From a virus: DNA of 64,000 bases. The notes under the pieces were generated by a model that made no database searches, was not told the DNA's origin, and was given only the letters and a program-made list of their open reading frames with translations. The translations under genes and the position numbers were made by a program. The stretch's first letter is position 1; each line of letters starts with the position of its first letter. This document shows, piece after piece, positions 16,141 through 29,782 of the stretch. The stretch is from positions 1 to 64,000 of the IMG/VR virus record IMGVR_UViG_3300028800_000081. The stretch is one strand, 5' to 3'.

Positions 16141-16359
16141 GTGTCATGGCTCTCCTACATATGGGCTGCGATCAAGGCGATATTCAGCGGCTATGTCGGG
16201 GCGAAGCAGCAAGTCGGGGTGGATCAAGGCCGTGCCGAAGCCGAGCGTGACATGAGCGTAGCATCTGCAAAGACCGAATCGCGTGTCGCACAAGCCGAAG
16301 TAGACGCTCCCCATAGCATTACTGAGGCGGAGAGGAGGGCGGAAGATGGGACGCTGTGA
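16141..16359 (+). CDS. i-spanin (Rz-like) candidate
   Basis: N-terminal hydrophobic segment plus short coiled coil; stop overlaps the GTG of the downstream lipoprotein. Confidence 0.55.
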   Translation: MSWLSYIWAAIKAIFSGYVGAKQQVGVDQGRAEAERDMSVASAKTESRVAQAEVDAPHSITEAERRAEDGTL

Positions 16360-16720
16360 GGAAATTTGCTGCGGGCCGGGCTCGAAACCGGCTGTCCCTT
16401 TTGGGGGTGAATTGGGTACTGGGTCTCCGCCAGCAAGGCGGTACATACGTTCCCCAACGGACGGCGACCATTTCCGTGCTTCCTTCAGCACCGCCGCAGC
16501 CCTCGCACTATGCGCCCTCACAGCCTGCTCTACAAGCCCGCCAGTGCCTCCGGTTCAAACGGTATGCCTGCCAATGGCGACCTACTCCCAAGCCGCACAG
16601 ACCGCCCTAGCGAAGGAATGGCGCGCTCTCGACCCCAACAGTCTGACGGCGAGCCGGTTCATTCCTGATTCGATCGCATTGAGGGACAGCAACCGCGCCG
16701 CATGTGGGGCCAAACCGTGA
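16356..16720 (+). CDS. o-spanin (Rz1-like) lipoprotein interrupted by a 125-nt structured insert, or read from ATG 16346 with an extended N-terminus
   Basis: ALALCALTA|CSTSPPVPP lipobox, Pro-rich segment and later cysteines; the MRKF start lies in another frame. Confidence 0.6.
16367..16500 (-). ncRNA. tRNA-like RNA with an enlarged central arm
   Basis: Acceptor GCTGCGG/CCGCAGC-A; D-like arm GTGC-TGAAGGAA-GCAC; T-like arm GCCGG-TTTCGAGC-CCGGC. Confidence 0.6.
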
Positions 16721-18876: not shown

Positions 18877-18952
18877 TCCGCCGTTCCGTATCTGCCTCAG
18901 GATGGACCATAATCACACTTGCCACCGCCATGGCTGCGGGGTAGAGTTGCGT

Positions 18953-19229
18953 GCTGCGGCGGCGTTGGAAGCCATCACACCGAGGGAAACTGTCGCGGGT
19001 GGCAACGGACGAAACGCTGGCCTTGATCCGCAAGTAGCCGAAGCCGCTGTAATGCGGCACCGTGAGGGTTATCGCTTCGAAGGCGCAAGTATCGGCTGTT
19101 AGGAAAGTCGCCTACGGCGTCGGATTGCCTCGAAGATGAAAGTCCCGCAGGCGAAGTCGGGTAGCGACAAACGGTGGAGCGGTCTAGAACGCCCTTCCGT
19201 CAGCCAGAGGTGGCGGCTGGCCCGCAGCG
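18953..19229 (+). ncRNA. Large tRNA-like structured RNA
   Basis: GCTGCGG...CCGCAGC terminal stem with GCCAG/CTGGC hairpin stacked on it; multi-hairpin interior. Confidence 0.55.
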
Positions 19230-21359: not shown

Positions 21360-22310
21360 TTAGGCGTTCGCGGTTTTGTTAGTCTGATGATATTGCAGGC
21401 GCTTGCCCTTCGCTCCCGCCAATAAGGCGTCGGCGCGCGCTGCATCCGTCATGTGACGGCCATTATATCGGAAATCGAACTCGGCAAGATAACGTGGCAA
21501 ATGTTGCTCGCTGATGCTGTGGAACGTGCCGTAAACGCCGCGCTTCAGGATCGCAAAATAGCTTTCAATCGTGTTGGTATGCATGAAGCCGCCAAGGCGC
21601 ACATATTCGTCCGCCGAATGATTGACCGTGCCGTGACCGGAGAACTCCGCACCGATTGACGGATAAACCGTGCTTTCGTCCGTCATCAGGTACGACTTGC
21701 GGCTTGCGTGCTTCACGATGATAGGGCGAAGCGTCTTGGAGTTCACGTTCGCAACATGGAAGGAGCGGACATGTCCGCCGTCACGCTCGACAAGGGCGAA
21801 CACGGGAGACTTTTTCGGGATCGGGCCAAACGCCTTATTCTTCGCCTTGCCTCCGATATACGTTTCGTCACCTTCAACGACCTTGTTCTTACCGCCTAAA
21901 GGGCGCGGCTTCTTCGCAATCGGGCATTCCCGCAAACGATGCGCGAGGAACCAAGCCGCCTCGTAACTGATATCCAGCATCCGATGCAGTTGAAGGGCGC
22001 TAATGCCTTTCTTGCTCGCCATCATCAGGTGCGAGGCCATGACCCATTTTGTCAGCGGGATATGGCTGCGCTCCATGACGGTTCCGACCGTGACGCTGAA
22101 GGGCTTGCGGCAATCTTTGCAGTTGTAAACGCCCGGGCGGGTGCTCTTCCCGGCAAGCTTTGTGATCCGGCCCCCGAACTGGCCACAACGCGGGCACGTA
22201 GCCCCGGCGTCCTTCCACAGGACGCTTTCCAGATGTTCCCGCGCCTTGTCCTCATCATTGAAAATGGGGTTGCGGATATCGAACGATTGCTTGGGGAATT
22301 TCTTGGACAC
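21360..22310 (-). CDS. IS1595-family transposase
   Basis: Zn ribbon CPRCG..CKDC; DETYIGG, TDE, NHS, HTNTIES, YLAEFDFRYN. Confidence 0.95.
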   Translation of the reverse strand: MSKKFPKQSFDIRNPIFNDEDKAREHLESVLWKDAGATCPRCGQFGGRITKLAGKSTRPGVYNCKDCRKPFSVTVGTVMERSHIPLTKWVMASHLMMASKKGISALQLHRMLDISYEAAWFLAHRLRECPIAKKPRPLGGKNKVVEGDETYIGGKAKNKAFGPIPKKSPVFALVERDGGHVRSFHVANVNSKTLRPIIVKHASRKSYLMTDESTVYPSIGAEFSGHGTVNHSADEYVRLGGFMHTNTIESYFAILKRGVYGTFHSISEQHLPRYLAEFDFRYNGRHMTDAARADALLAGAKGKRLQYHQTNKTANA

Positions 22311-23220: not shown

Positions 23221-23940
23221 TTATGCGCGGCAAACACGACATTGGAGCGCGGCCATTGGGTCGCGGCGCGTCTCTCGCGGAACGCGGCCCTTCTCAAATT
23301 CGGCCCGCAACAGCCGAAGCGATGCAGGCCATGTGTCCCGTTGAGGCGAGCGAAACGTGAAGCCAGTCAATTCCTCATAAGCCTCGCCTTCGAGGTATGC
23401 GGGCAGATTGTCCCTCCAAAGCTCAAACCACTGAATGAGTCGCTGGAAAAAACACAACATGCAATCCGTCCGGGCCGGAATTATGATCCCGCGTTGAGCG
23501 TTGAAAGACAGAACTTCGGCCAGCCCCATTCCAGCTTCCCGGAGCGGGAAAAGCATCTCGACGTTTGGCACATTCTGATAGTCTCCGCCCTCGCGCGCCG
23601 GTTCATCCGCGCGCAAGCCAACATAGAACTTTGCTGGCGAATGCTGCATCAGATAGGCGGCAAACGGCTCAATCTTCAGGACGCGCGTGCACCAACGCTG
23701 TCGCCAATTGGGAAGCGCCTTCCATTGGCGAATGAGCCCGTCCAGTCCGCCAGGGTACATCAGAGGCAGAATAGGGCCGATACGGTCCCGCAAGACCTTC
23801 ATGTGAGAGAACCACTCCGGCGGCTCATTGCCGGTCGGCGTGCAGACCCATTGAAAATCAATTTCAGGGTGCGTTTCTTTGAGCAACACAGCCATCGCAA
23901 CGCTGTCCTTGCCGCCTGAGATCGCGCCAATATGGTTCAT
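23221..23940 (-). CDS. PAPS-reductase-like PP-loop protein
   Basis: ISGGKDS, RWCTRVLK, GLRADE, CMLC. Confidence 0.85.
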   Translation of the reverse strand: MNHIGAISGGKDSVAMAVLLKETHPEIDFQWVCTPTGNEPPEWFSHMKVLRDRIGPILPLMYPGGLDGLIRQWKALPNWRQRWCTRVLKIEPFAAYLMQHSPAKFYVGLRADEPAREGGDYQNVPNVEMLFPLREAGMGLAEVLSFNAQRGIIIPARTDCMLCFFQRLIQWFELWRDNLPAYLEGEAYEELTGFTFRSPQRDTWPASLRLLRAEFEKGRVPRETRRDPMAALQCRVCRA

Positions 23941-24373: not shown

Positions 24374-24895
24374 TTAGCGGACAGGGGGGATAGTCGTTGA
24401 CGCTAGCAGTTCGGCGCGAATCTCCATCCAGAGCTTGCCGAGCATGTTCTGGCCTTCACGATACGGACCCCAACCCCAGAAGTTGTCGCGCCACGAATTT
24501 TCGATCAGTGTCCGCTCGCCCGTCGCCAATAGCTTGCGCCTAACATATTCGTGTTGAATGGTTTTGGCACGAAGGATGTCGCGCATGACGCCAATCTTCA
24601 CCGTATCCCAATCACGGCGCTGGAAGCTCTTGTTTTCCTGTGCAAGCTTGAACGCCTCATGGGCGGAAGCGGCGAAGCGGATATTGTCGGCAATGAGCCA
24701 CGCTTGCGCCCCGATGGCTGGGCTTTGTCCTTCCTGTCCGGTAGCGAACCTTTCCCAATGATATGCCGCCTCTGATGTATCGAAATCCCTTCCGCGCCAC
24801 TGAATGCGGAAAGCTGAGAAATTCGATAGGACATAGAAATCCTGTTCGTAGAAAAACACCTGCGTCTCATTGTCGAGTCCGTGAATTTCCATCAC
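24374..24895 (-). CDS. NADAR family (YbiA-like) protein
   Basis: LSNF, TSEAAY, RRDWD, LLATG, IENS, WG, GQNMLGKLWMEIR. Confidence 0.9.
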   Translation of the reverse strand: MMEIHGLDNETQVFFYEQDFYVLSNFSAFRIQWRGRDFDTSEAAYHWERFATGQEGQSPAIGAQAWLIADNIRFAASAHEAFKLAQENKSFQRRDWDTVKIGVMRDILRAKTIQHEYVRRKLLATGERTLIENSWRDNFWGWGPYREGQNMLGKLWMEIRAELLASTTIPPVR

Positions 24896-25250: not shown

Positions 25251-26473
25251 TGTACGGGCTCGGATGGCGGCGGCGATACCATCAGCAATGGCGTACCCTC
25301 GCAGGAAAATTGGGCCTTCGCGCTTTGGAAAGTCAGGCTTTTCCATTTCGGCATTCTCGGCTGCTGCCCACTCGTCCGCAATCTTCGCTGCTTCCTCGAA
25401 TGCCTCCGCTCTGATACGCGCACTCTCTCCCCCTGCCCCGTCTGCGCCGTGTGGCCGTACCTTTTCGAGCCAGAATTGAACGTGGCCGAACGCTTTTTTG
25501 TCGTATCCCTGCGCACACTCCGCAGGATGATCGTGAGCGTAGCCCCATGCCAGATGAAATTCCGATATGCCTGCCCCGTCTGCGGTGGGCTGGAGGCGGG
25601 AGAGGGCGGCGAATTCGCAAAGCAAATCGACAACCGCGACCGACGATATTGAGGCCGCGTCTCTGTAGCCTTTCGAAACAAGGAATTGTGCGGCCTTGGA
25701 TACCTGTTCAGTCAGCGCAACGTCGCCGGGCGGACGGTCGGTCATGGGTTCACCTTTAGTAACTGGAAACGCGGGCATACGTGGTCTGAGCGCACAGGCA
25801 TATAGCCGTAAAAGTCGCTCTCCAGATCGCACGTCATTTGACGCTTGTTCATTGTGTATCCTTTGTGGGCGCAGTAACCGCAACAGGCACCATCGGAACG
25901 TAACTGCGCAACCATGGCGTCTCGGAGAGTTTTTGTAATTTTCGCTCGCAAGCGAAGACGCGCCTTTCTAGCGGGGCTCAGTTTACTCATTCTCCATCTC
26001 GCTTGGTGACAGCGGCGGCGCGGATCGCGTCTCTAGTCTTTTCGACGCCAAGCCAAAAAGCGTGCGTGGATTCTTCGGAGCCGCTTTCTTCATCGGGATA
26101 TTTCGGCATGGCCCTATCAACCGCCCGCTCAAGCCTCTCCACCTTATCAAGGAGCGATTCTACTGTCGCGTCGCCGTTGAACATCTTGCGGATTGTAGTG
26201 GTGTCTGGGGGCGTGGTCATAGTCCTAAATCCTTGGCATCTTCATTCGCGACGAAGCCGTTGCAGCGGTCGCAGATGCGGCCTTCATCGCCCATGGTATC
26301 CGTATATGGTCGCCAATCATGGACGCAGGCGTCGAAATGTGCGCGCCACTCCTTCACGCAAGCCTCGCAGAACCAGCAATCCTCCATCATCGTCATTGTT
26401 TCTATGGGAAACGCTTTCTCGCAATGCTCACATTGCTGCATGTCTGCCAGCGTCACGGGTTTGGTCGGGTGGG

Positions 26474-28660: not shown

Positions 28661-29782
28661 CTACGCCTTCGCGCCTTTCAGCCGATCGCGGTTTGTCTTA
28701 TAGGTCGCGTTCCACTTCGGCCGGAGATCGTCTTCGCGGTTCTTCTGTGCCAGTTCGCGGCACACCTGATCGTCGATATGATCGAGGTCCGACATGGCGT
28801 CGCAGGAATCGGCGAGATCGGATTGCTTGCCAAGCCAGTCCGCCGTCTCGTCGGGCTCGCGTTGCTGCTCGGGCGCGGGCTTCTGATCCGCCGCTTGTTC
28901 TGGCGCATTGATGGGTTCGGGCTTCACTTCCGCCTTTGGCTTCGTCTCAGGCTCGATGGGGGCCTTGGCAGACGTTTCCTGCGGCACTTCGATCGCCGGC
29001 TTGCCGAGATAGTCCTCGCGCCGTGGGCGCTCTGTGGGCCGCGTTGCTGGCGCTCCCCCGTGGTCTACAACGCGGCCGGCCATTTCCTCGGCGGCGTATT
29101 CGCCCCCAAGCTCTTCCGGGTAGGCGCGACGCAGGGCCGCCGCTTCGGCACATTTCTCGAGCTGCCCGCGCGGCCTGCCTTCCCACATCGAATTTGGCAG
29201 TTCAGAAAAGTGGCTCTTCGTCGCGTAGGTTTCCTCCCAATAAACGCGCGGCCCAGGGAACGGCACGCGGTTCCCCTGTAGCATCCGGTAAAGCGTAATC
29301 TGCGCCCATTCCGGGAACGTGACGGTGGCCTGCTCTTCCTTGTGATCCCTGTTCTCGCCGAAGAAGGTTTTCTCGATGTCGTCGCCGAACACACATGGAT
29401 CGCAACCAGCATAGGAGCCGGTTCGCATCGCCGTGGTGCGCAGTTCCGATATGCTCGGCCAAACGGTTTCAACGGTTTTCCGCAGCGCCGAATTGTAGAC
29501 GGGCACGATGTGCACCGGCCTCTTGAACGGATCGAGTTGGCGGGCGCGGCAATACGAAAGCGCCATGATGACGGATTCGAGGCTTTGAGCGCCGGGCCAA
29601 ATGGATTCGACCAGTACGCGCCAGCCAGCACGATCGACGCCGAAGCGTTCCTCGATCAGCGGGTGGTATGGAAGCCTCTCGGCCGCCAGGCGGACGACTT
29701 CCTGCCCCTTGGTGGGCTGCTCCGGCGGCAATGTCTGCGCCTGCGTCTTGTCCTTCGTGGTGGTGGATTTCGCCATTGTCAT
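28661..29782 (-). CDS. bet: RecT/Bet single-strand annealing protein
   Basis: LDPFKRPVHIV, MW..RP..QL.KCAEAAALRRAYPE. Confidence 0.88.
   Translation of the reverse strand: MTMAKSTTTKDKTQAQTLPPEQPTKGQEVVRLAAERLPYHPLIEERFGVDRAGWRVLVESIWPGAQSLESVIMALSYCRARQLDPFKRPVHIVPVYNSALRKTVETVWPSISELRTTAMRTGSYAGCDPCVFGDDIEKTFFGENRDHKEEQATVTFPEWAQITLYRMLQGNRVPFPGPRVYWEETYATKSHFSELPNSMWEGRPRGQLEKCAEAAALRRAYPEELGGEYAAEEMAGRVVDHGGAPATRPTERPRREDYLGKPAIEVPQETSAKAPIEPETKPKAEVKPEPINAPEQAADQKPAPEQQREPDETADWLGKQSDLADSCDAMSDLDHIDDQVCRELAQKNREDDLRPKWNATYKTNRDRLKGAKA

What the first reader, a model, noticed from the sequence alone, without database searches (positions are those of the whole stretch)
16356..16720. Antisense tRNA-shaped element splits the signal peptide of a probable o-spanin
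Seen: GTG 16356 overlaps the upstream stop (GTGA) and reads MRKF. Removing 16368-16492 (125 nt, frameshifting) gives a textbook lipoprotein signal, MRKFAAALALCALTA|C. The insert read on the minus strand is tRNA-shaped: a 7-bp acceptor stem, a D-like arm with GG, a T-like arm with TTCGA, and about 80 nt of irregular hairpin in place of the anticodon and variable arms, with no encoded CCA. On the mRNA its terminal stem brings the two exon-like ends together. Inference: this is a mobile tRNA-like insertion that is spliced, bypassed by ribosomes (TTT 16365 to in-frame TTC 16484), or tolerated by using ATG 16346, which has a good SD. It could also act as an antisense lysis regulator.
Basis: partly seen in the sequence, partly recalled or inferred. 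Interest (0 to 1): 0.8.

Follow-up and report, generated by a model that had tools for sequence, protein, structure and literature searches.

The report
tRNA-shaped RNA gene inside spanin gene
A phage lysis gene (a probable outer-membrane spanin) is interrupted near its start by an intact, backwards-facing gene for a tRNA-shaped small RNA that belongs to a large, apparently uncatalogued family of phage RNAs, and the lysis protein can probably still be made from a new upstream start codon.

Summary
Window 16368-16500 (minus strand, 133 nt, not 125) has a perfect 7-bp terminal helix, a 5-bp D-like hairpin, a variable centre and a T-like hairpin. ARAGORN, Rfam and folding energy see nothing, but comparison does. 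The terminal helix and D-like stem covary heavily. A covariance model built without the window hits 16368-16500 at 59.9 bits (E 7e-10). A second copy lies at 18953-19228 (+).

All 48 homologues of the lipoprotein match only its residues 43 onward; only P0042 has a long N-terminal extension. In two related loci the start overlaps the upstream stop (ATGA) where the window has GTGA. So the RNA gene interrupts the ancestral reading frame.

ATG 16346 follows AGGAGG by 7 nt and is in frame and open through the RNA gene. It gives a 124-aa precursor with about 45 extra residues before the lipobox. I favour this tolerated route (about 0.55) over a dead gene (about 0.25). Splicing and ribosome hopping have no support. 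The RNA's function is unknown.

The parts
16141..16359 (+). i-spanin-like ORF, 72 aa, with an N-terminal hydrophobic segment. It ends ..AEDGTL and its stop is TGA 16357-16359.
   Evidence: ORF list. There is no Pfam or PHROG hit. The label rests on architecture and on the homologous C-terminal ..DGTI / ..EGTI ends next to o-spanin homologues in L002 and L004.
16333..16338 (+). AGGAGG Shine-Dalgarno-like hexamer, 7 nt before ATG 16346. It is made of two AGG Arg codons of the i-spanin-like gene.
   Evidence: Sequence. AGG is 15 of 321 Arg codons in 13 long ORFs. Only 3-4 of the 11 plus-strand AGGAGG sites precede an ORF start.
16346..16720 (+). 124-aa ORF (P0001): about 45 extra N-terminal residues, then the signal peptide and lipobox, then the mature o-spanin-like domain.
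   Evidence: phrog_26778 matches residues 54-118 starting at profile position 2. All 48 homologues match only residues 43 onward. Alignment A1.
16356..16359 (+). GTGA overlap. GTG 16356 is the probable ancestral o-spanin start and is now out of frame with the gene body.
   Evidence: L002 and L004 have ATGA at the equivalent place.
16368..16500 (-). Copy A of the tRNA-shaped small RNA gene, 133 nt.
   Evidence: Model R2, built without the window, scores 59.9 bits, E 6.8e-10, over the full model length. R1 scores 91.3 bits, but copy A is in its seed. Alignments A3 and A4.
16494..16500 (-). 5' strand of the 7-bp terminal (acceptor-like) helix. It pairs with 16368-16374. On the plus strand it also forms part of the Ala codons at the start of the signal peptide.
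16476..16491 (-). D-like hairpin: 5-bp stem and a 6-nt loop GAAGGA, starting at RNA nt 10.
   Evidence: 17 of 18 members have such a hairpin, with 10 distinct stem sequences.
16375..16392 (-). T-like hairpin: 5-bp stem and an 8-nt loop, stacked directly on the terminal helix.
   Evidence: It is identical to that of L009.
16507..16535 (-). Promoter-like site for copy A. TTGTAG is the reverse complement of 16530-16535, the spacer is 17 nt, and CATAGT is the reverse complement of 16507-16512. It ends 6 nt before the RNA 5' end and lies antisense within the signal-peptide codons.
   Evidence: this arrangement is found at 21 of 116 family members against 29 of 2320 random positions. Only 7 of 12 positions match the E. 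coli consensus, and the consensus scan did not list it.
16493..16528 (+). Signal-peptide hydrophobic region and lipobox, AAALALCALTAC. The Cys codon is 16526-16528 (residue 61 of P0001).
16412..16414 (+). In-frame TTG, an alternative start that would give a 39-residue signal peptide.
   Evidence: Read. No test was possible.
18953..19228 (+). Copy B of the same RNA family, 276 nt. It has the same terminal helix as copy A, a T-like stem GCCAG/CTGGC, and long insertions.
   Evidence: 5' part only, 17 bits, E 0.1-0.2. Sequence, fold. The both-ends motif search finds it. R2 did not find it.
18919..18947 (+). Promoter-like site of copy B: TTGCCA, 17-nt spacer, TAGAGT. It ends 5 nt before the RNA 5' end.
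   Evidence: 9 of 12 matches to the consensus.

Best explanation
Window 16368-16500 (minus strand) is an intact gene for a tRNA-shaped small RNA. It belongs to a large family carried by phages and prophages of Pseudomonadota.

The family plan is:
- a 7-bp terminal helix whose outer three pairs vary freely but always pair;
- two unpaired bases;
- a 5-bp D-like hairpin;
- a central domain of very variable length;
- a 5-bp T-like hairpin with an 8-9-nt loop, stacked on the terminal helix;
- no encoded CCA.

In part of the family a sigma-70-type promoter ends 4-9 nt before the 5' end.

In this phage one copy sits in the usual kind of place, an intergenic gap after the late genes (copy B, 18953-19228). 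The other (copy A) lies backwards inside the first codons of the o-spanin gene.

The ancestral o-spanin started at GTG 16356, overlapping the i-spanin stop. The RNA gene now separates that start from the signal peptide and puts it out of frame.

The gene is most likely still expressed from ATG 16346. That ATG is a by-product of conserved Asp-Gly codons in the i-spanin and has a strong Shine-Dalgarno site. From it the reading frame runs open, antisense, through the whole RNA gene into the signal peptide. The product would be a 124-residue precursor whose first 60 residues are removed at the lipobox Cys.

Shown: the family, its structure, the interruption, and the open frame.

Inferred:
- That the RNA is transcribed and processed like a tRNA. 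This is suggested by its shape and by members that lie 5-10 nt from tRNA genes.
- That the long precursor is exported and lipidated.
- That the RNA acts as a tRNA mimic. Its target is unknown.

The confidence given (0.55) is for the whole statement, including use of ATG 16346. That the element is a member of a real structured family interrupting the o-spanin I hold at about 0.9.
For: RNA family:
- Terminal helix, 17 sequences: 100% of 204 cells paired, 4 of 7 pairs with compensatory changes, 0 of 500 shuffles as good, about 40% paired when the partner is slid.
- Terminal helix, 55 distinct sequences: 99.7% of 660 cells paired, pairs 1-3 each show all four Watson-Crick types, and 71 doubly changed cells against 17.4 in shuffles.
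- D-like hairpin: present in 17 of 18 members with 10 different stems; 15 have a loop of 12 nt or less, against a mean of 2.0 (max 6) in shuffles.
- Model R2, built without the window, hits 16368-16500(-) at 59.9 bits, E 6.8e-10.
- One copy each in 9 of 151 Acetobacteraceae genomes and in 4 of 151 Pseudomonadota genomes, G003 included in both counts.
- Promoter-like site: 21 of 116 members against 29 of 2320 random positions; both window copies have it.
- A tRNA gene lies within 600 nt of 17 of 114 elements (15 on the same strand), some only 5-10 nt away. In the Acetobacteraceae loci 5 of 8 have one 108-429 nt upstream.

Interruption:
- 50 proteins reached E<=1e-3. Leaving out the query itself and a 584-aa repeat protein, 48 homologues of 74-138 aa remain, and all align only from query residue 43 onward.
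- The four closest have Cys at position 15-16.
- L002 and L004 have the start overlapping the i-spanin stop as ATGA.
- G001, the phage that holds L002, has no hit of the RNA model at E<=1.

Tolerated route:
- AGGAGG lies 7 nt before ATG 16346, and the frame is open to 16720.
- AGG is only 4.7% of Arg codons.
- A variant contig in run X1 keeps this ATG and the AGGAGG, and carries another allele of the RNA's 3' end at the same place. It has GTA instead of GTG 16356.
Against: - No RNA data exist for this phage, so transcription and processing of the RNA are unproven (see Tried and rejected).
- Folding energy is unremarkable, and for L009 z is only -1.3.
- The promoter-like site of copy A matches only 7 of 12 consensus positions and was not listed by the consensus scan.
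- 95 of 116 members lack such a site.
- In the large alignment, two of the five covariation measures are no better than shuffles: pairs with a change on both sides, 3 against 2.9 (425 of 500 shuffles reach it); further pair types, 13 against 11.7 (127 of 500).
- The T-like stem hardly varies, partly because the search patterns fixed it.
- Alignments A6 and A7 were fitted to the model's structure.
- An open 49-codon frame at this G+C content is expected about one time in four (my own arithmetic), so openness alone is weak evidence.
- AGGAGG is not reserved for start sites here: 7 of the 11 plus-strand copies are not followed by a start codon within 4-12 nt.
- A lipobox 60 residues from the start is unusual, and nothing here shows export.
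- The clean 125-nt deletion is not the element's boundary. The last 8 nt of the RNA gene double as Ala codons, so the exact ancestral junction cannot be rebuilt.
- The variant contig is 113 nt long at depth 3.
Confidence: 0.55

Rival explanations
1. The RNA gene insertion killed the o-spanin. The 124-aa frame is open by luck and no functional lipoprotein is made. The phage gets by without a working spanin pair, or uses another one.
For: The ancestral start, GTG 16356, is out of frame and its frame gives an 84-aa product unrelated to the o-spanin. An open 49-codon frame is not rare at this G+C content (own arithmetic). Of 116 family members examined, only this one lies inside a lipoprotein ORF, so the arrangement is exceptional. 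AGGAGG is not specific to start sites.
Against: The mature domain is intact and 70% identical to P0003. A strong Shine-Dalgarno site sits at ideal spacing before an in-frame ATG. A diverged strain shares the arrangement. No second o-spanin candidate was noticed in the cassette, though no systematic search was made.
Confidence: 0.25
2. The conserved element works as DNA, not RNA. It would be a recombination or packaging site such as an att core or a cos-linked site, and the paired ends would be protein-binding inverted repeats.
For: An exact 22-mer is shared by at least 120 viral contigs. Members often lie at prophage-host junctions or next to tRNA genes that serve as integration targets. One copy, L020, is split. 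No RNA data exist.
Against: Compensatory changes occur in two separate helices with otherwise free sequence. A promoter-like site lies at a fixed distance from the 5' end in 21 of 116 members. Some members lie in tRNA clusters with 5-10 nt spacing on the same strand. No tyrosine integrase is found in this phage. Whole copies, not half sites, occur in unintegrated phage contigs.
Confidence: 0.08
3. The mRNA is repaired. Either the element is spliced out, or ribosomes starting at GTG 16356 hop from TTT 16365 to TTC 16484.
For: On paper, the deletion gives a 16-residue signal peptide of the same length as the closest homologues. The terminal helix would bring the two ends together.
Against: No intron or ribozyme family matched. 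No joined form was seen in the contigs of four runs. There is no stop codon after the take-off codon, and the GTG frame stays open for 84 codons. The take-off and landing codons differ. The variant strain has GTA at 16356. The deletion boundary (125 nt) does not coincide with the RNA gene (133 nt).
Confidence: 0.02
4. Nothing special is there. The tRNA shape is a chance fold, and the long N-terminus is the natural form of this o-spanin.
For: ARAGORN, Rfam and folding z-scores are all negative.
Against: A model built without the window hits at E 6.8e-10. The 26-nt 3' end is identical to that of L009. No homologue match reaches residues 1-42; 12 of 12 aligned homologues and the 13 further sequences read have no long N-terminal extension, and only P0042 (138 aa) does.
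Confidence: 0.01

Closest known systems
Phage P1/P7 c4 and P4 CI immunity RNAs (recalled, not read here). These are small phage regulators cut out of precursors by RNase P because their paired ends mimic a tRNA acceptor stem. The Rfam family is named C4 (recalled).
   Same: Phage-borne, about 80-130 nt, with 5' and 3' ends paired into an acceptor-like helix and internal hairpins. Likely dependent on tRNA-processing enzymes.
   Different: No Rfam family, C4 included, matched any member tested. c4 and CI pair with nearby target sites, but the central domains of 115 members show no excess complementarity to the surrounding 4 kb on each side. This family has a T-like arm and a much more variable length.
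T4 species 1 and 2 RNAs and the phi80 M3 RNA (recalled). These are stable tRNA-like phage RNAs of unknown function, encoded with or processed like tRNAs.
   Same: tRNA-shaped, with no anticodon function evident. Some members lie within tRNA clusters. Function unknown.
   Different: The present family is from phages of Pseudomonadota (hosts seen include Acetobacteraceae; a Burkholderiales-named RNA motif lies in one locus). It is defined by its own conserved D-like and T-like sequences.
Bacterial Y RNAs of the YrlA type (Chen et al. 2014, PMC4201824; passages read).
   Same: Non-coding RNAs with a tRNA-like module, also found in phages. They are substrates of tRNA enzymes.
   Different: In YrlA the T and D arms lie in the middle, the acceptor-like stem is a hairpin between them, and the RNA ends form the Ro60-binding helix. 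YrlA genes lie next to Ro60 genes. Here the RNA ends form the acceptor-like helix, and no constant protein neighbour exists: the commonest neighbour is an endolysin, in 11 of 115 loci.
Rickettsia palindromic elements (recalled). These are short structured repeats that insert into protein-coding genes and are translated as part of the protein.
   Same: A structured element of about 130 nt sits inside an ORF and is read through, adding residues to the protein.
   Different: Those are multicopy selfish repeats inserted in frame. This is an RNA gene with one or two copies and a promoter-like site. It is not a multiple of three and is tolerated only through a shift to another start codon.
T4 gene 60 translational bypass (recalled).
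   Same: A non-coding gap inside a phage ORF.
   Different: The defining features were tested and not met. See the membership test.

Membership tests
Canonical tRNA | Recognised by a tRNA finder or by the Rfam tRNA model | tested here: not met
   ARAGORN found 0 genes in the window and 0 in L020-L027. The Rfam tRNA model gave no match at E<=10. The same tools did find true tRNAs in L030, L031 and L034-L036.
Canonical tRNA | Anticodon arm, 7-nt T loop, D loop with GG, encoded or added CCA | tested here: not met
   The centre is 50-220 nt of variable sequence. The T-like loop has 8-9 nt. The D-like loop reads GAAGGA, GATGGA or GAAAGCAGA. No CCA follows the 3' end.
tmRNA | tRNA-like domain plus a tag reading frame; detected by ARAGORN or Rfam | tested here: not met
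   ARAGORN in tmRNA mode found none. No Rfam tmRNA match.
Phage tRNA-shaped small RNA family defined here | 7-bp terminal helix formed by the two ends | tested here: met
   16494-16500 pairs with 16368-16374, 7 of 7 pairs.
Phage tRNA-shaped small RNA family defined here | 5-bp hairpin starting at nt 10 with a purine-rich loop | tested here: met
   Stem GTGCT/AGCAC with loop GAAGGA.
Phage tRNA-shaped small RNA family defined here | Conserved T-like hairpin abutting the terminal helix | tested here: met
   The 26 nt at the 3' end are identical to those of L009.
Phage tRNA-shaped small RNA family defined here | Significant score against a model built without the candidate | tested here: met
   R2 scores 59.9 bits, E 6.8e-10, over model positions 1-115. 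Copy B was not found by R2. It was recognised by R1 in its 5' part only (17 bits) and by the both-ends motif search.
Phage tRNA-shaped small RNA family defined here | Transcribed and processed to a discrete RNA | not testable with these tools
   No RNA run holds the stretch.
o-spanin (small outer-membrane lipoprotein of a two-part spanin) | Lipobox with Cys after a hydrophobic stretch | tested here: met
   LTAC with Cys at residue 61 of P0001. The Cys is invariant in alignment A1.
o-spanin (small outer-membrane lipoprotein of a two-part spanin) | Gene overlaps or follows that of a membrane-anchored partner within a lysis cassette | tested here: inconclusive
   The gene follows a 72-aa ORF with an N-terminal hydrophobic segment. 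Weak holin PHROG hits lie upstream (E about 1e-3). No endolysin was identified in the window. phrog_26778 is annotated as unknown function.
o-spanin (small outer-membrane lipoprotein of a two-part spanin) | Signal peptide at the N-terminus | tested here: not met
   From ATG 16346 the lipobox Cys is residue 61, and from TTG 16412 it is residue 39. In the four closest homologues read (P0003-P0006) it is residue 15-16.
T4 gene 60-type bypass | Identical take-off and landing codons, a stop codon right after take-off, and a short gap | tested here: not met
   TTT against TTC; GCT follows the take-off codon; the gap would be 116 nt; the GTG frame is open for 84 codons.
MITE or insertion sequence | Terminal inverted repeats beyond a few bases, target-site duplication, many copies | tested here: not met
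   Only the 7-bp helix is present and there are no flanking direct repeats. There is one full copy plus one diverged paralogue in the phage. There is one copy per bacterial genome.
Self-splicing intron or ribozyme | Match to a known catalytic RNA class | tested here: not met
   No Rfam match at E<=10.

The most novel reading that the evidence does not exclude
The arrangement is not an accident but a working overlap. A gene for a new class of phage tRNA mimic would be maintained antisense inside the leader of the o-spanin gene in a whole lineage.

Two hints point that way:
- The variant strain in run X1.
- Possibly the 138-aa homologue P0042. Its N-terminal extension carries the same short peptide motifs as the antisense translation of the RNA.

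On this reading the RNA's promoter, firing against the late transcript, helps set the amount or timing of spanin synthesis.

Separately, the RNA family itself may be an undescribed, widespread phage tool that engages the host tRNA machinery. For example, it could act as a decoy for tRNA-directed defences. It would be processed by RNase P and could sit in tRNA clusters.
Probability: 0.2. Interest if true: 0.8.

Novelty: new variant of a known kind. Interest (0 to 1): 0.62.

Why it matters
There are two points of interest.

First, the element led to a large family of tRNA-shaped RNA genes in phages and prophages.
- One 22-mer alone hits at least 120 viral contigs.
- About 6% of sampled Acetobacteraceae genomes carry a copy.
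- The family shows textbook covariation, yet matches nothing in Rfam 15, and no paper holding its core sequence turned up in the full-text library.
- It may be listed without a name among the 8,495 candidate viral RNAs of Fremin et al. 2023 (PMC10690425). I could not open their supplements.

tRNA mimics in phages are of current interest because many host defences cut or sense tRNAs. A conserved scaffold with a free central domain invites experiments.

Second, it is a clear natural case of an RNA gene landing inside an essential-looking lysis gene and being accommodated by a shift of start codon. The same DNA would then encode a structured RNA on one strand and a disposable protein leader on the other. 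That bears on how tolerant lipoprotein signal peptides are to long N-terminal extensions, and on how phage mosaic junctions heal.

Tried and rejected
- **Single-sequence tests saw nothing.** ARAGORN, Rfam and folding z-scores were all negative, and I nearly dismissed the tRNA shape on that basis.
- **Close DNA relatives.** INPHARED blastn in distant mode gave no match. A viral-contig search with the 124-aa protein found none. Two exact 26-nt patterns from the element found none.
- **Other copies in the phage.** blastn-short found nothing beyond 12 nt. Copy B is too diverged for it.
- **Repeats.** No terminal inverted repeats or target duplication. The 9-nt inverted repeat 16353-16361 / 16516-16524 is about what chance gives (own estimate 0.13).
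- **First alignment for locus search.** A1 was too diverse, so I used the four closest sequences as A2. A genome-contig scan with A2 found none.
- **Cis-antisense model (c4/CI-like).** The longest complementary match of the central domain to 4 kb on each side is no longer than in other loci: matches of 12 nt or more in 4 of 115 own loci against 22 of 682 controls. Rejected for perfect matches of 11 nt or more.
- **Constant protein partner.** None. The commonest neighbour is a lysozyme-type endolysin, in 11 of 115 loci.
- **Other spanin genes hosting the RNA.** The o-spanin profile found no other case among all held loci. A scan for antisense lipoprotein ORFs gave 3 of 116, and two of those look spurious.
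- **P0042 as a second case.** BLASTP aligns only the mature parts. Its DNA was not in viral contigs. The N-terminal word search found only the query itself. It remains a hint.
- **Integrase.** No PF00589 match in the phage.
- **Expression.** No RNA holder was listed for the stretch. All four runs laid were DNA contigs.
- **Empty allele.** No joint or empty allele was seen. Contigs drop rare variants, so this shows nothing about absence.
- **Literature.** Four full-text searches found no description of this family. I read passages of PMC4201824 and PMC10690425 and otherwise saw only listings. Supplements were closed.
Full report
**What is at the site**

The window is the first 64 kb of a 73,132-base virus record that CheckV rates complete. 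Around the finding lie small plus-strand ORFs.
- 16141-16359 encodes 72 residues with a hydrophobic N-terminus.
- GTG 16356 overlaps its stop as GTGA and reads M-R-K-F.
- ATG 16346, 7 nt after AGGAGG, opens a 124-codon frame that ends at 16720.
- Deleting 16368-16492 does join MRKF in frame to AAALALCALTAC.

**The protein side**

phrog_26778 (unknown function, 65 positions) matches residues 54-118 of the 124-aa product, starting from profile position 2.

An exhaustive HMMER search returned 50 proteins at E<=1e-3. One is the query itself. One is a 584-aa repeat protein that touches residues 20-51, which I set aside as compositional. The other 48 are 74-138 aa long, and every alignment starts at query residue 43 or later.

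The four closest homologues (49-70% identity) have signal peptides of 15-16 residues, for example M-T-R-A-L-A-I-L-A-C-L-A-L-S-A-C. In a 13-sequence alignment only the window protein has the roughly 45-residue N-terminal extension.

DNA was obtained for two related loci, L002 (a 74.7-kb viral contig) and L004. Both show the upstream gene ending ..DGTI or ..EGTI, with the lipoprotein ATG overlapping its stop as ATGA. That is exactly where the window has GTGA. The ATG at 16346 comes from the conserved Asp-Gly codons (GAT GGG). It is present, out of frame, in L002 too.

I call the pair i-spanin-like and probable o-spanin on architecture only. No curated family names them.

**The RNA side: first pass negative, then positive**

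ARAGORN, Rfam at E<=10 and folding energies gave nothing. The turn came from three results.
- The element was searched in the records behind L002 and L003 (L006 was not held); the one behind L003 gave a 23-nt match, 20 of 23 identical.
- A pattern of the element's 3' end hit one bacterial scaffold, Acetobacteraceae bacterium AT-5844, locus L009.
- Aligning L009 with the window's minus strand showed that the element runs from 16500 down to 16368. Its 5' seven bases pair perfectly with its 3' seven. The next hairpin has the same loop in both sequences but a compensated stem, and the last 26 nt are identical.

**Expanding the family**

- A degenerate T-arm pattern found 8 viral loci.
- A first covariance model (R1) found one copy each in 9 of 151 Acetobacteraceae genomes.
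- R1 found no copy in G001, the phage that holds the intact spanin pair of L002.

A script found a fully pairing 5' strand for 105 of 121 of these matches. Element length has a median of 126 nt and a range of 81-230 nt.

**Structure evidence**

*Terminal helix.*
- On 17 sequences, all 204 cells pair and 4 of 7 pairs have compensatory changes. No shuffle out of 500 does as well, and sliding the partner drops pairing to about 40%.
- On 55 distinct further sequences, 99.7% of 660 cells pair, and pairs 1-3 each show all four Watson-Crick types.

To be fair to the data, in the larger set two coarse measures are no better than shuffles: the number of pairs with any double change, and the number of extra pair types. 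The T-like stem is almost invariant, partly because my patterns fixed it. Both alignments were also fitted to the model.

*D-like hairpin.* A 5-bp stem starting at nt 10 is present in 17 of 18 members, with 10 different stem sequences. Fifteen have loops of 12 nt or less, against a mean of 2.0 in shuffles.

*Independent test.* Model R2, built from 56 members and not from the window, hits 16368-16500(-) over its full length at 59.9 bits, E 6.8e-10.

*Rfam.* Rfam 15 matches no member tried.

**A second copy**

The window also holds copy B at 18953-19228 on the plus strand, in the gap after the last late-region ORF.
- It has the same terminal helix as copy A.
- Its T-like stem is compensated (GCCAG/CTGGC).
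- It has a 46-nt insertion in the D-like loop and a long centre.
- A good promoter-like site (TTGCCA, 17-nt spacer, TAGAGT) ends 5 nt before its 5' end.

R2 with default filters did not find it.

Copy A's 3' end is identical to that of L009, whereas copy B's T-like arm differs. I therefore infer that A came from another phage rather than by duplication of B.

**Where family members sit**

- There is no constant protein neighbour. The commonest is a lysozyme-type endolysin, in 11 of 115 loci. Several seed loci lie in or beside lysis cassettes.
- In bacterial genomes, members lie at the edge of prophage-like DNA. In 5 of 8 Acetobacteraceae loci a host tRNA gene lies 108-429 nt upstream on the same strand.
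- Across 114 elements, 17 have a tRNA gene within 600 nt. A few are only 5-10 nt away on the same strand, as inside a tRNA operon.
- A promoter-like site (TTG, 16-18 nt, NANNNT) ending 4-9 nt before the 5' end occurs at 21 of 116 elements, against 29 of 2320 random positions.
- Another 21 of 116 have the terminal helix extended by 5 bp or more into the flanks.

These facts suggest an RNA released by tRNA-processing enzymes. That is inference.

**How copy A and the o-spanin coexist**

The RNA gene occupies 16368-16500. Its promoter-like site (7 of 12 consensus positions) lies antisense within codons of the signal peptide, at 16507-16535.

The signal-peptide codons align with those of homologues (A-L-C ... 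A-C ... S-P). I therefore take them as ancestral o-spanin sequence rather than imported DNA.

The last 8 nt of the RNA gene double as Ala codons.

From ATG 16346 the frame is open through the RNA gene. At this G+C content an open 49-codon frame has roughly a one-in-four chance (my arithmetic).

*Points for real use of this start:*
- The AGGAGG is at ideal spacing and is made of two AGG codons, each used for only 4.7% of Arg.
- A variant strain in run X1 has four differences over 16269-16357. It keeps the ATG and AGGAGG, has GTA instead of GTG 16356, and continues into a different allele of the RNA's 3' end at the same position.

*Points against:*
- AGGAGG is not restricted to starts in this phage.
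- A lipobox 60 residues in is unusual.
- Nothing shows export.

I put the tolerated route at about 0.55 (ATG 16346, or less likely TTG 16412), a dead gene at about 0.25, and a DNA-site reading of the element at about 0.08. The remainder, a few per cent each at most, goes to splicing or hopping, to chance, and to explanations not listed. Splicing and hopping are at about 0.02 for the reasons given under the rival explanations.

**What the RNA does**

I could not determine this. A c4/CI-type cis-antisense mechanism is not supported.

The conserved scaffold with a free centre, the tRNA-like ends and the company of tRNA genes point to an RNA that engages tRNA-handling proteins. I commit to 'tRNA mimic processed by RNase P' as the most likely mode, at perhaps 0.4, with the target unknown.

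A by-product in this phage is antisense transcription across the i-spanin/o-spanin junction, which could damp spanin synthesis. This is untested.

**Comparison and novelty**

tRNA-like small RNAs in phages are a known kind. Examples are c4/CI, T4 species 1 and 2, and phi80 M3 (all recalled), and YrlA (passages read).

This family fails the membership tests for tRNA, tmRNA, YrlA topology and every Rfam model.

It may be among the unnamed candidates of a 2023 viral RNA catalogue (PMC10690425; passages read, supplements closed).

An RNA gene lodged antisense in a spanin leader and read through as protein is, as far as my four literature searches go, not described.

I rate the finding a new variant of a known kind, with interest 0.62.

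Noticed in passing
window 18953-19228 (+), promoter-like site 18919-18947: A second, longer member of the same RNA family lies in the intergenic gap after the late genes, about 2.4 kb from copy A and facing away from it. It has the same terminal helix, a compensated T-like stem and large insertions.
   Followed up: partly
window 21360-22310 (-): An IS1595-family transposase (DDE_Tnp_IS1595, E 7e-36, plus a zinc ribbon) lies inside the phage genome.
   Followed up: no
window 23221-23940, 24374-24895, 28661-29782 (all -): A PAPS-reductase-like protein, a NADAR-domain protein and a RecT recombinase lie in the early region.
   Followed up: no
run X1, contig record 5, over window 16269-16357: A related strain has four differences, then a diverged junction: TAG stop for the i-spanin, GTA in place of GTG 16356, and another allele of the RNA's 3' end. 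The contig is only 113 nt at depth 3.
   Followed up: partly
protein P0042 (138 aa, no DNA held): This o-spanin homologue has a 56-residue N-terminal extension. Its short motifs (C-G-P ... P-A-x-P-F-G, and V-S-F-N-A-A-A-A just before the hydrophobic stretch) resemble the antisense translation of the RNA gene. It may be a second case of the same overlap.
   Followed up: partly
L020 9579-10059: This is a split or rebuilt family member. The promoter and 5' part run straight into an ORF (M-K-R-V-F...) whose ribosome-binding site is the D-like loop. A T-like arm and 3' strand with a non-matching terminal helix lie about 400 nt downstream, next to host genes.
   Followed up: no
L094, L066, L110, L158: Family members lie 5-30 nt from tRNA genes on the same strand, as if part of a tRNA operon.
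   Followed up: no
L043, L052, L054, L062, L079, L080 and others: In 21 of 116 members the terminal helix continues 5 bp or more into the flanks (for example ..CCATCACA before and TGTGATGG.. after). Such members lack the promoter-like site directly upstream.
   Followed up: no
L052 1542-1615 (-): A Burkholderiales-2 RNA (Rfam RF02917, 93.5 bits) lies about 1 kb from the family member in that prophage.
   Followed up: no
window 26009-26087 (+): A weak R2 hit (16.2 bits, E 0.35) has a similar 5' start. It is probably chance.
   Followed up: no
window 16374-16403 (+): On the plus strand the T-like hairpin followed by CCCTTTTG scores as a terminator-like site. It is one of 2 in 4 kb, against 4.2 expected. 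It could attenuate the late transcript inside the o-spanin leader.
   Followed up: no
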